64,000 nucleotides of DNA. Origin: Escherichia coli (GTDB lineage Bacteria; Pseudomonadota; Gammaproteobacteria; Enterobacterales; Enterobacteriaceae). Shown here in pieces: positions 1 through 3,000 of the stretch; position 1 is the first letter of the stretch; the number at the start of each line of letters is the position of its first letter. Location: NCBI RefSeq assembly GCF_003334405.1, contig NZ_QOWM01000002.1. One strand, written 5' to 3'. The position numbers were made by a program.

Positions 1-3000
1 AGAATACCGGTGTTCCTGGCAATATTATGGGGCATACCACCCGACGGGTGATCCGTGCTCCTGCTGCAGGCATTATGCGATCCAACGTGAAATTAGGCGA
101 TCTGGTGAAAGAGGGCGATGTGATTGCCTGGATTGGTGAGCATGAAATTAAAGCACCGTTGACGGGGATGGTGCGTGGCTTGTTGAACGACGGCCTGGCA
201 GTGGTTGGTGGTTTTAAAATTGGTGATATCGATCCTCGTGGTGAAACCGCTGATTTCACCAGCGTTTCTGATAAAGCCCGGGCGATTGGCGGCGGCGTAC
301 TTGAGGCGTTAATGATGTTGATGCATCAGGGCGTGAAAGCGACAAAAGAAGTGCTGGAAGTGGCTTAAATGAAAATGGCCGGATGGTATTACCCACCCGG
401 CCTGAGACTGATGACAAACGCCAAATTGCCTGATGCGCTACGCTTATCAGGCCTACAAGTGCATTGCAATCTATTGAATTTGCGATGTTTTGTAGGACGG
501 ATAAGGCGCTCGCGCCGCATCCGGCATCAACAAAGCGCACTTACTTGACAATCTTTGGCCGGATGGTATTACCCACCCGGCCTTTAAATTACTGACAAAT
601 CACCGTTCCTGTTTTGCCTTCAATCCCTTCTTTCGCTTTGCTCAATACGGTAATCAGTGCTTCACGACCTGCGCGAGAGCGAGCAAACGAGGCGGCAGCT
701 TCCACTTTAGGCAGCATAGAACCTTTCGCAAAATGACCTTCTTCGATAAAGCGTTCAGCATCACTTAATGACAGGCGATCGAGCCACTGTTCATTCTCTT
801 TACCGAAGTTAATGGCCACTTTTTCTACCGCAGTCAGAATGATCAGCATATCGGCATCAATCATTTCTGCTAAACGGGCGCTGGCCCAGTCTTTATCGAT
901 AACCGCGCTGGCACCACGCAGATGGTTACCTTCACGAATAACAGGGATACCACCACCGCCAACGGTGATCACCACCTGACCTGCATCTACCAGAGCTTTA
1001 ACCGTTTCTTTTTCAATGATATCAACCGGTTTTGGCGAGGCAACAACACGGCGATAGCCGCGACCAGCATCTTCTTTCAGAGTGTAACCCTGTTTTGTCA
1101 GTTGCTCTGCTTCTTGCTCGGTAAAGAACGAACCGATCGGCTTGGTCGGGTTGAGGAATGCCGGATCGTTAGCGTCGACTTCGACCTGAGTAACCAGCGT
1201 TGCTACAGGTTTATTAATGCCCCGAGAAAGCAGTTCTTCTCTTAAAGCGTTTTGTAGATCGTAACCAATATAACCCTGGCTTAATGCAACACAGACAGAC
1301 ATCGGCAGCATTGGCGAGTGCGCTTCAGTTTTTGCGGCAGCTTCAAAGGCCTGGTTAATCATGCCCACCTGCGGCCCGTTACCATGAGTGACGATAACTT
1401 CATGTCCCTGGGCAATTAAATCAACAATTGCCTGAGAAGTAATTTTTACCGCTTTCATTTGCCCGGCCAGGTCATCGCCCAGCGCATTCCCGCCCAGGGC
1501 GAGAACAATTTTCTTACTCATTTTTCCTCACTCATCATTCTTGATTGTGTATAGATCCCTGGCAGTGGTTAGAGCACGGGAGGGACAAACGGTTTGCGTC
1601 GCAGGAAACGACCTCGCCCGGCTTTGCCTGTAAAGGTGCCGTCACAGAAAATCGTTTCACCACGGGATAAGGTTCTGACAATCGCGCCCTGACAGGTAAA
1701 ACCCTCCCATGGCGAGTAGTCGGCGTTGTCGTGGAGATGGCGATGCTGAATTTGTTGGCTCTGACGTGGGTCGATAATCACCACGTCGCCGTCGGAACCG
1801 GGCGCTAATAATCCTTTTTGCGGCCACAGGCCAAACAACCTGGCGGGCATTGCGCTGGTTAATTCAACAAAGCGTTCCGGTGTTATACGTCCCGTCATCA
1901 CGCCACTGGAAAACAGTAACTGCATGCGGTTTTCCACACCGGGTAAGCCATTTGGGCAGCGACTGAAATCGCCTTTAGAAATTTGCAGGCGTTGAGCCAT
2001 CGAGAAGGTGCAGTGATCGGTTGCCACCACGTCAATCGCACCATCGCTGATGCCACACCACAGTTTGTCCTGCTCGCGTACGTTACGCAGCGGTGGGCTA
2101 AGAATGAACTTCATGCCATCTTCTGTATCGTAACTGCGTTCGTCCAACAGGAGATATTGTGGGCAGGTTTCAACCCAGACTGGCTGGTGATTCGCACGGG
2201 CAAGACGCAGATAATCCAGACCTAAGCCGTTAGACAGGTGCACGATATAGAGCGGGGCGTTACCGGCAATTTGTGCCAGGTTAATCATGCGGGCGATGGC
2301 TTCCGCTTCGCATTCCAGAGGGCGACTCAAGGCATGATAGCGCGGCGCGGTTAACCCTGCGGCGATAAATTCCGCCCGCTTGCTGGCGATAGCCGCATCA
2401 TTTTCCGGGTGCACGGTGGTCAGCGCGCCGGATTCATGCAAGCGGCGTAATGCCTGCAAAACCTCGTCATCGTTGAGTTTGTATTGATAGGTTAAATAGA
2501 GTTTAAAACTGCTCAGTCCTTCCTCGACCATCATCGGGATTTCGTCGAGGATTGCGTGATTAATGTGCTGGATCACACCGTGAAAGCTGTAATCGATGAC
2601 CGCTTTATGGGCGGCATAACCACGATAAACCTCCAGTTGATGGCGTAACCGACAGCCGTTTGGGCCAAATCCCATATGGTCAATAATGGTTGTTGTACCG
2701 CCACATGCAGCTGCGCGGGTACCGGTAAAAAAATCATCACAACTGCGCGCGATGCCGACATCAATATTGAAATGCGTATGGACATCCACGCCGCCAGGGA
2801 AAACGTAACAGCCAGTGGCATCAATTTCTTCATACGGGAGCTGCGGCGAAATATTGTTGCCCAACTGGCGAACAATCCCGCTTTCAATCAGCAAATCCTG
2901 TTTGGCTTGTCCATCTGCGTTAACGACAGTGCCGTTTTTGATCAATACGCGCATAGCAAACTCCAAAAACCCTCCGGCGAACCGGAGGGGAATAAGTGAA

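What the first reader, a model, noticed from the sequence alone, without database searches (positions are those of the whole stretch)
2968..2994. Terminator-like hairpin directly in front of the hyuA ribosome-binding site
On the transcribed strand, a GC-rich 8-bp stem (CCCTCCGG/CCGGAGGG), a UUUUU run, the GGAG Shine-Dalgarno and the hyuA ATG follow one another within 40 nt of the ygeY stop. This could give partial termination and uneven expression along the operon, or act as an mRNA stabiliser. GC-rich palindromes also occur at the ygeW/ygeX and ygeX/ygeY junctions.
Basis: seen in the sequence. Interest (0 to 1): 0.3.

Follow-up and report, generated by a model that had tools for sequence, protein, structure and literature searches.

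The report
Terminator-like hairpin between ygeY and hyuA
A short, very stable RNA hairpin followed by five U's sits between two genes of the E. coli anaerobic urate-degradation operon; it is real, conserved and most likely a leaky internal terminator and RNA-end protector, which is an ordinary kind of bacterial operon punctuation.

Summary
On the minus strand, an 8-bp perfect stem (CCCTCCGG/CCGGAGGG, 2989-2970, loop TTCG) is followed by T5 (2969-2965), GGAG (2964-2961) and the hyuA ATG (2954-2952). It starts 18 nt after the ygeY stop. It is far beyond chance and scores like the true terminators elsewhere in the window. The site is single-copy, present in 5164 of 5426 complete E. coli genomes, with no variation seen in the stem arms.

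About 80% of 62 other Gammaproteobacteria carry a strong GC-rich hairpin at the same junction, with different stem sequences and compensatory changes. Similar hairpins are conserved at ygeW/ygeX and, more weakly, ygeX/ygeY, but not at hyuA/yqeA. The U-run is not conserved: only 7 of 50 strong hairpins have a T-run of 4 or more.

My best reading is a conserved intercistronic stem-loop that in E. coli also acts as a leaky Rho-independent terminator. It would give more ygeWXY than hyuA-yqeA mRNA and leave a protected 3' end. hyuA has no promoter motif of its own and is co-regulated with ygeWXY, so read-through must occur.

No 3'-end data exist for this rarely expressed operon, so termination versus pure stabilisation is unresolved. 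A hypothesis that the Shine-Dalgarno (SD) sequence is sequestered for translational coupling was tested and rejected. This is an ordinary new member of a known kind, of low interest.

The parts
3007..3009 (-). ygeY stop codon TAA
   Evidence: the ORF 3007-4218 is annotated as ygeY in matching E. coli records.
2990..3006 (-). 17-nt pyrimidine/AU-rich spacer (TTACTCTTCACTTATTC) between the stop codon and the hairpin
   Evidence: It is long enough for the hairpin to form behind a ribosome sitting on the stop codon (inference from the known ribosome footprint). Natural variants fall here.
2982..2989 (-). Hairpin 5' arm CCCTCCGG
   Evidence: unpaired probability at most 0.02. Invariant in the E. 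coli variants sampled.
2978..2981 (-). Loop TTCG
   Evidence: It varies within E. coli (TTTA, TTCA) and between genera (3-8 nt), so the loop sequence is not constrained.
2970..2977 (-). Hairpin 3' arm CCGGAGGG
   Evidence: Invariant in the E. coli variants sampled.
2965..2969 (-). U5 tract immediately after the stem. Release is expected 7-9 nt past the stem, at about 2963-2961.
   Evidence: Tail score -4.71; unpaired probability 0.86-0.97. One strain has T4. The tract is not conserved in other genera. The release position is inferred from the general behaviour of intrinsic terminators.
2961..2964 (-). hyuA Shine-Dalgarno GGAG, 6 nt before the ATG
   Evidence: GGAG or GAGG lies 2-5 nt after the hairpin in most of the Enterobacteriaceae sampled.
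2952..2954 (-). hyuA start codon ATG
   Evidence: annotation.
5502..5523 (-). Sister hairpin at the ygeW/ygeX junction (GGGCCGATC-AGCT-GGTCGGCCC), 6 nt after the ygeW stop, with the weak tail TCTATTTCC
   Evidence: A strong hairpin is conserved at this junction in 79% of 71 species.
4238..4260 (-). Sister hairpin at the ygeX/ygeY junction (TGCTCCCTG-CAAAA-CGGGGAGTA), followed by an A-rich tail
   Evidence: Hairpins at this junction are weaker (41% reach -10 kcal/mol or lower) and none has a T-rich tail.
6811..6826 (-). Sigma-54-like motif TGGCACACTTATTGTT upstream of ygeW; the presumed single promoter feeding the operon
   Evidence: 2 mismatches; a match of this quality is common by chance. 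An RpoN binding peak in the ygeV/ygeW spacer is reported in PMC8743547. Assigning the promoter to this motif is an inference.

Best explanation
The element is a conserved intercistronic RNA stem-loop. In E. coli it carries a U5 tail and so most likely works as a leaky Rho-independent terminator and a protector of the RNA 3' end.

Transcription starts at the YgeV/sigma-54-dependent promoter upstream of ygeW. After RNA polymerase passes the ygeY stop, the 8-bp GC-rich hairpin folds in the exit channel while the weak rU:dA hybrid is in the active site. A fraction of polymerases release about 7-9 nt past the stem. This gives a ygeW-ygeX-ygeY mRNA whose 3' hairpin blocks 3'-to-5' exonucleases.

The remaining polymerases read through. 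On those transcripts the hairpin sits 5 nt upstream of the hyuA SD without covering it, so hyuA and yqeA are translated. The net effect is more ygeWXY than hyuA-yqeA message.

Shown here: the anatomy, non-randomness, conservation and covariation of the stem, the absence of a hyuA promoter motif, and the absence of a predicted competing fold.

Inferred only: actual termination, its efficiency, and the stabilising effect.
For: Anatomy:
- The stem has 8 perfect pairs (7 of them G-C), a 4-nt loop, -15.6 kcal/mol, with U5 directly after the stem.
- The tail score is -4.71. The site ranks third of only 7 such sites in 128 kb. Four of the other six were checked: two lie at ORF ends and two are the omrA and omrB terminators.
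- Shuffled windows give 0.05 sites this strong.
- The hairpin starts 18 nt after the stop codon, so it is not occluded by a terminating ribosome.
- Stem bases are at least 98% paired in a 136-nt context, with no alternative antiterminator fold.

Conservation within E. coli:
- The site is single-copy in 5164 of 5426 genomes.
- The variants found lie in the loop, the U-run length or the flanks, never in the arms.
- The intergenic region differs at 1 of 52 positions between K-12-like and B2 strains, against 11.4% at four-fold degenerate sites (P = 0.014).

Conservation across genera:
- 81% of 62 species have a perfect-stem hairpin of -10 kcal/mol or lower at this junction (median -18.4, against -4.9 for shuffles).
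- The stems differ in sequence.
- On a sequence-only alignment, 6 of 9 pairs show changes on both sides. No shuffle out of 500 reaches the observed pairing or covariation, and slid controls are lower.

Read-through is required:
- No sigma-70-like or sigma-54-like motif lies upstream of hyuA.
- hyuA belongs to the same YgeV iModulon as ygeW, ygeX and ygeY.

Precedent: internal terminators with GC-rich stems and U-poor tails set transcript ratios in Clostridial ABC-transporter operons (PMC9045158).

Weak hint: in vitro pathway reconstitution used ten times more YgeW and YgeY than HyuA.
Against: - There is no experimental 3' end. These genes are absent from the Term-seq supplementary tables I could search, probably because the operon is silent in standard media.
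- The U-tract is short: five U's and then GGAG.
- The U-run is not conserved. The nearest genera have TTTCC, TCT or CC after an equally good stem, and only 7 of 50 strong hairpins have a T-run of 4 or more. Selection on the hairpin therefore cannot be explained by canonical termination alone.
- The sister hairpins at ygeW/ygeX and ygeX/ygeY lack U-tails, which points to a role after transcription.
- All four intergenic regions of the operon are conserved within E. coli, including the one without a hairpin. The within-species conservation is therefore not specific to the hairpin.
Confidence: 0.5

Rival explanations
1. The hairpin is purely a post-transcriptional stability or processing element. 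RNA polymerase reads through essentially always. After endonucleolytic cleavage in the AU-rich flanks, the stem-loop acts as a barrier to 3'-to-5' exonucleases for the ygeWXY segment, or as a protective 5' hairpin for hyuA-yqeA. This sets the half-lives of the segments. On this view the U5 in E. coli is incidental or serves translation.
For: - Hairpins are conserved at three of the four junctions, mostly without U-tails. At ygeY/hyuA only 8 of 50 strong hairpins have 5 or more T's in the 8-nt tail. At ygeX/ygeY the figure is 0 of 22, and those tails are A-rich.
- The ygeW/ygeX hairpin begins only 5-9 nt after the stop codon, which is too close to form while a ribosome is terminating.
- Compensatory changes preserve the stem whatever the tail.
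Against: In E. coli the tail is a clean U5 placed exactly where a terminator needs it, and the site scores with the true terminators of the window. The U5 is kept in nearly all of the 5164 genomes. The two roles are not exclusive.
Confidence: 0.27
2. The hairpin is a translation element for hyuA. It could act as an insulator or standby-site structure that keeps the SD free of upstream pairing. Alternatively it could act as a clamp that brings the ygeY stop codon next to the hyuA SD, so that terminating ribosomes unmask the SD and reinitiate (translational coupling).
For: - The distance from the hairpin to the ATG is tightly kept at 12-16 nt, with the SD 2-5 nt after the stem, in most of the Enterobacteriaceae sampled.
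- In the E. coli MFE fold, the stop codon plus ACUCU pairs with GGAGU plus the spacer around the hairpin.
- Real upstream spacers form less extra structure than shuffled ones (median -5.0 against -7.5 kcal/mol). This fits selection for an open ribosome-binding site next to a discrete hairpin.
Against: The SD-sequestering outer helix is no better than chance. Only 1 of 34 species beats 95% of shuffled spacers, and E. coli gives p = 0.5. The spacing may simply reflect compact intergenic regions of about 50 nt. More distant taxa keep the hairpin at 18-80 nt from the ATG.
Confidence: 0.1
3. The hairpin is a full terminator that ends a ygeWXY operon, and hyuA-yqeA is transcribed from its own promoter.
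For: Some literature and databases call the unit 'ygeWXY' or even 'ygeW' alone. The hairpin looks like a competent terminator.
Against: - Only 15 nt separate the hairpin from the ATG.
- No sigma-70-like site on this strand, and no sigma-54-like site, lies in the 350 nt upstream.
- No RpoN binding peak is reported there.
- hyuA is co-regulated with ygeWXY in the YgeV iModulon.
- Another source names the operon ygeWXY-hyuA-yqeA.
Confidence: 0.06
4. The element is a DNA-level palindrome (a protein operator, a repetitive extragenic element or a recombination site), or a neutral leftover with no function.
For: It is a perfect 8+8 inverted repeat. In some Serratia genomes the same junction holds large repeated palindromic elements.
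Against: - It is single-copy in the window and in every genome, and it does not match any Rfam family.
- Between genera the bases change while the pairing is kept, and the loop length varies from 3 to 8 nt. That is the signature of an RNA or single-strand structure, not of a sequence-specific operator.
- It is conserved well below the synonymous rate.
Confidence: 0.04

Closest known systems
Rho-independent (intrinsic) transcription terminators placed inside operons (internal or leaky terminators), for example those downstream of substrate-binding-protein genes in Clostridial ABC-importer operons (PMC9045158)
   Same: A GC-rich stem-loop in an intercistronic spacer is followed by a short or imperfect U-tract, with downstream genes that depend on read-through. 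The predicted outcome is more upstream than downstream transcript, plus a stabilised upstream 3' end. That paper also reports that internal terminators have U-poor tails and long GC-rich stems, as seen here across genera.
   Different: Termination here is not demonstrated. The operon encodes a catabolic pathway rather than a transporter with an obvious need for unequal subunit amounts. The U-tract varies between lineages.
Intercistronic mRNA-stabilising stem-loops that block 3' exonucleases (classic examples from my own knowledge: the REP hairpins between malE and malF in E. coli, and the puf operon intercistronic hairpins of Rhodobacter capsulatus)
   Same: A stable hairpin sits just downstream of an upstream cistron. 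The structure is conserved without a need for a U-tract. Several junctions of one operon carry such hairpins.
   Different: It is not a REP element: it is single-copy and lacks the REP consensus. At 8 bp it is much shorter than the puf structures. No half-life data exist.
The other canonical terminators in the same window (the omrA and omrB terminators, and gene-end hairpins at 37378-37399 and 39097-39123)
   Same: It falls in the same score class for stem energy and U-tail.
   Different: Those lie at the ends of sRNAs or ORFs. This one lies 15 nt in front of the start codon of a co-regulated gene.

Membership tests
Rho-independent (intrinsic) terminator | GC-rich stem of about 5-14 bp with a 3-8 nt loop | tested here: met
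   8 perfect pairs, 7 of them G-C; 4-nt loop; -15.6 kcal/mol.
Rho-independent (intrinsic) terminator | U-rich tract starting within 0-2 nt of the stem | tested here: met
   UUUUU lies directly after the stem; 5 of the first 8 nt are U; TransTermHP-type tail score -4.71. The feature is met in E. coli but not in most other genera.
Rho-independent (intrinsic) terminator | The hairpin can form co-transcriptionally: no competing fold, and not occluded by the terminating ribosome | tested here: met
   Stem paired with probability at least 0.98 in a 136-nt context. It starts 18 nt after the stop codon. The ribosome-footprint argument is an inference.
Rho-independent (intrinsic) terminator | RNA 3' ends mapped at the U-tract in vivo or in vitro | not testable with these tools
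   No entry for ygeY or hyuA in the supplementary tables held for Adams 2021 or for TERMITe. Other data sets are not held.
Intercistronic mRNA-stabiliser hairpin | Stable stem-loop in the spacer, conserved as structure rather than as sequence | tested here: met
   81% of 62 species have one, with different stem sequences. 6 of 9 pairs show changes on both sides, and no shuffle out of 500 reaches the observed values.
Intercistronic mRNA-stabiliser hairpin | The upstream segment is longer-lived or more abundant than the downstream segment, and this depends on the hairpin | not testable with these tools
   It needs RNA-seq, northern blots or half-life measurements. The CBT2.0 RNA-seq result is held only as an image.
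REP/BIME repetitive extragenic palindrome | Many copies per genome sharing a consensus sequence | tested here: not met
   One copy in the window at up to 3 mismatches. One place per genome in 5164 genomes. True REP-like sequence lies elsewhere, at 449-531.
SD-sequestering translational-coupling structure | The SD of the downstream gene pairs with the end of the upstream cistron more than chance allows, and this is conserved | tested here: not met
   The extra stabilisation from spacer-SD pairing is no better than with shuffled spacers (1 of 34 species at p <= 0.05; E. coli p = 0.5).
Curated cis-regulatory RNA (riboswitch, leader or attenuator in Rfam) | Match to a covariance model | tested here: not met
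   No hit at the junction, even at E <= 1 or at gathering thresholds.

The most novel reading that the evidence does not exclude
The three conserved junction hairpins (ygeW/ygeX, ygeX/ygeY and ygeY/hyuA) may together form a selected 'punctuation code' that sets a fixed gradient of enzyme levels for anaerobic urate catabolism, through segmental RNA decay and attenuation. On this reading the E. coli lineage converted the third hairpin into a true terminator by acquiring U5, which makes hyuA-yqeA expression conditional on read-through, for example through elongation-factor or growth-state control.
Probability: 0.12. Interest if true: 0.4.

Novelty: new member of a known kind. Interest (0 to 1): 0.2.

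Why it matters
The ygeW-yqeA genes have recently been shown to encode steps of the anaerobic 2,8-dioxopurine/urate degradation pathway of gut bacteria, and strains are being engineered to overexpress them. If this hairpin is a leaky terminator, a strong promoter inserted upstream of ygeW would raise YgeW, YgeX and YgeY more than HyuA and YqeA. That could explain intermediate build-up, and it would be a simple target for tuning the pathway by removing or weakening the hairpin or the U-run. It would also settle the inconsistent operon annotation (ygeW, ygeWXY or ygeWXY-hyuA-yqeA). Beyond that, it is a routine example of operon punctuation.

Tried and rejected
1. SD-sequestering or translational-coupling helix around the hairpin. 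The E. coli MFE fold suggests it. With the hairpin enforced, however, the extra pairing energy is not better than with shuffled spacers in 33 of 34 species. Rejected.

2. Own promoter for hyuA. There is no sigma-70-like site on this strand and no sigma-54-like site in the 350 nt upstream.

3. REP or other mobile palindrome. The element is single-copy.

4. Known RNA family. Rfam finds nothing at the junction.

5. Consensus folding. RNAalifold on MAFFT alignments gave no structure, or only 4 pairs, because the stems fall out of register. I specified the helix by hand instead.

6. Covariance model. A model built from 26 Enterobacteriaceae sequences found only its own training set. It did not reach Edwardsiella, Morganella, Aeromonas or others, and it did not correct the E. 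coli register. It therefore added no independent evidence.

7. Control using the hairpin after yqeA in each species as a 'true terminator' reference for U-richness. This was too noisy to discriminate: median tail score -2.72 against -2.73.

8. Literature. No 3'-end entry for these genes in the searchable Term-seq supplements. Supplements are not held for three other papers. The hairpin sequence occurs in no indexed paper. A search for 'uacR' returned only clinical UACR papers.
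Full report
**Where the window comes from.** The window is E. coli chromosome of K-12-like sequence: the junction is 100% identical to DH1 and O16:H48 strains. The genes ygeW (5530-6720), ygeX/dpaL (4276-5472), ygeY (3007-4218), hyuA (1569-2954) and yqeA/arcC (589-1521) all lie on the minus strand. These genes encode steps of the recently described anaerobic urate (2,8-dioxopurine) pathway. HyuA opens the hydantoin ring, YgeW (helped by YqeA) removes a carbamoyl group, YgeY hydrolyses the second ureido group, and YgeX makes pyruvate.

**Observation.** Reading the minus strand, the order of elements is:
- TAA, the ygeY stop (3009-3007)
- 17 nt of spacer
- CCCTCCGG (2989-2982)
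- TTCG (2981-2978)
- CCGGAGGG (2977-2970)
- TTTTT (2969-2965)
- GGAG (2964-2961)
- TTTGCT
- ATG, the hyuA start (2954-2952)

The one exception is that the ATG lies 52 nt, not under 40 nt, after the stop codon. The hairpin folds at -15.6 kcal/mol and is essentially always formed in a 136-nt context, with no competing fold. The built-in terminator scan lists it.

**Is it more than chance?** I scanned the whole window on both strands for perfect stems of at most -10 kcal/mol with a TransTermHP-type tail score of at most -4. Seven sites pass, and this one ranks third. Of the other six, four were checked: two sit at ORF ends and two are the terminators of the sRNAs OmrA and OmrB. Forty dinucleotide shuffles of the window give 0.7 sites on average, and 0.05 sites as stable as this one. 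The feature is therefore real and belongs by sequence to the terminator class.

**Within E. coli.** The junction is single-copy and present in 5164 of 5426 complete genomes. Among the most divergent copies, the changes are in the loop (TTCG to TTTA or TTCA), the U-run (T5 to T4 in one strain), an extra C 5' of the stem, and the upstream spacer. None falls in the stem arms. Between the K-12-like sequence and a B2 strain, four-fold degenerate sites differ at 11.4%, yet the four intergenic regions of the operon differ at 0, 0, 1 and 0 positions (P <= 0.014 each). That constraint is not specific to the hairpin.

**Across genera.** A scan of species-representative genomes with YgeY returned 80 loci, and ygeY is followed by hyuA in about 75 of them.
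- At the ygeY/hyuA junction, 81% of 62 species (spacers of 20-150 nt) have a perfect-stem hairpin of -10 kcal/mol or lower. The median is -18.4, against -4.9 for shuffles, and 81% beat 95% of their own shuffles.
- Several of the remaining species have the same hairpin with a bulge.
- The stem sequences differ. Examples are CCCTCCGG in Escherichia and Atlantibacter, CTCCCGTCG in Kluyvera, TCCCGCCGC in Klebsiella and Pluralibacter, CCCCGGCAC in Edwardsiella, GGCCCCGTAC in Morganella, and unrelated stems in Aeromonas and Shewanella.
- On a sequence-only MAFFT alignment of 26 Enterobacteriaceae sequences, the 9-bp helix is 83% paired and 6 of 9 pairs show changes on both sides. No shuffle out of 500 reaches the observed pairing or covariation, and slid controls give 37-68% pairing.
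- Hairpins are similarly conserved at ygeW/ygeX (79% strong) and more weakly at ygeX/ygeY (41%), but not at hyuA/yqeA (21%).

**The U-run is not conserved.** Of 50 strong ygeY/hyuA hairpins, only 8 have 5 or more T's in the next 8 nt, and only 7 have a T-run of 4 or more. Those seven are E. coli, Serratia silvae, three Morganella, Serratia sp. Ag1 and one Shewanella. The closest genera have TTTCC (Citrobacter amalonaticus), TCT (Kluyvera, Raoultella, Cedecea) or CC (Trabulsiella), followed directly by GGAG. The ygeX/ygeY hairpins have A-rich tails (0 of 22 T-rich), and the ygeW/ygeX hairpins start only 5-9 nt after the stop codon. What selection keeps, then, is the stem-loop. A canonical terminator tail is a patchy addition that E. 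coli happens to have. Internal terminators with long GC stems and U-poor tails have been shown to set transcript ratios in Clostridial operons (PMC9045158), so weak attenuation in the other genera is not excluded.

**Does hyuA depend on read-through?** Only 15 nt separate the hairpin from the ATG. No sigma-70-like site on this strand and no sigma-54-like motif lies in the 350 nt upstream. The only sigma-54-like motif in the operon is upstream of ygeW (6811-6826), where an RpoN binding peak has been reported. hyuA is in the same YgeV iModulon as ygeW, ygeX and ygeY. The literature names the unit variously as ygeW, ygeWXY or ygeWXY-hyuA-yqeA. That inconsistency is what one would expect if the hairpins confuse operon prediction.

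**Mechanism.** My best reading, at confidence 0.5, is a leaky intrinsic terminator that doubles as a 3'-end protector, giving more ygeWXY than hyuA-yqeA message. On read-through transcripts the hairpin sits next to the SD but does not cover it. The main rival, at 0.27, is a purely post-transcriptional barrier or processing hairpin.

I tested a translational-coupling idea because the E. coli MFE fold pairs the stop-codon region with the SD around the hairpin. With the hairpin enforced, the extra pairing is no better than with shuffled spacers in 33 of 34 species. Real spacers are in fact less structured than shuffled ones, which fits an open ribosome-binding site.

I also consider three further readings unlikely:
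- A full terminator with a separate hyuA promoter, for the read-through reasons above.
- A DNA operator, because between genera the bases change while the pairing is kept.
- A REP element, because the site is single-copy.

**Experimental evidence.** I found none. The genes do not appear in the supplementary tables held for two E. coli Term-seq studies, and the operon is rarely active in standard conditions. An RNA-seq comparison of a strain with a strong promoter inserted upstream of ygeW exists, but it is available here only as an image. No indexed paper contains the hairpin sequence.

**Verdict.** The feature is real, conserved and functional-looking, but of an ordinary kind. The comparative data add two points: the hairpin, not the U-run, is the conserved part, and it is one of three such hairpins in the operon.

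Noticed in passing
window 377-402 and 557-582 (minus strand), with 403-556 between them: The 26-nt hairpin GGCCGGGTGGGTAATACCATCCGGCC, which follows the yqeA stop, occurs twice. The two copies flank an insert of about 155 nt that contains REP-like palindromes, with weak Rfam hits to ES036 (449-491) and naRNA4 (495-531). Only the distal copy has a T-rich tail. This looks like a REP/BIME insertion that duplicated the operon-end terminator hairpin between the convergent genes yqeA and yqeB.
   Followed up: partly
window 43469-43550 and 43665-43752 (+): The tandem sRNA genes OmrA and OmrB (Rfam RF00079, 86 and 97 bits). Their near-identical terminators (43523-43544 and 43725-43746) were picked up by my terminator scan.
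   Followed up: yes
window 13925-13995 (+): A tRNA gene (Rfam RF00005, 71.6 bits).
   Followed up: no
L004 (E. coli Z1323CEC0019) 1893-4315: This strain has a deletion that fuses a C-terminally truncated ygeY directly to guaD, removing hyuA and everything between. In addition, 261 of the 5426 complete E. coli genomes have no match to the junction at all.
   Followed up: no
L040, L044, L046 (Serratia spp.), ygeY-hyuA spacers of 135-363 nt: In these Serratia genomes the junction holds large, multiply repeated palindromic elements, for example CTCACCCCACCCCTCTCCC-ACA-GGGAGAGGGGTGGGGTGAG. In L040 a part of the same palindrome also lies after yqeA. These look like genome-wide repetitive extragenic palindromes inserted at the hairpin site.
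   Followed up: no
L067, L071-L076, L080-L084 (Photobacterium and Vibrio), ygeY-hyuA spacers of 200-315 nt: These long spacers contain two or three conserved long hairpins. There is also an in-frame ATG about 60 nt upstream of the aligned HyuA start (ATGATTTCACAGCGTTCTTTTTCCCC...). This could be an N-terminal extension or a leader peptide.
   Followed up: no
Aeromonas loci L049-L060 and L066, ygeY-hyuA spacers of about 77-119 nt: In most of these Aeromonas loci, two successive strong hairpins occupy the junction instead of one: GCCGGGCGGTGA...TCGCCGCCCGGC and then GCCCCGTCTC...GAGGCGGGGC.
   Followed up: no
window 2676-2999 (+): A 107-aa ORF lies antisense to the 5' end of hyuA and ends inside the hairpin. 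It is listed mechanically only, and I saw no reason to think it is a gene.
   Followed up: no
window 40890-40957 (+): A weak match (19.3 bits, E about 0.07) to the junction covariance model, in an AT-rich stretch. It is most likely a chance hit.
   Followed up: no
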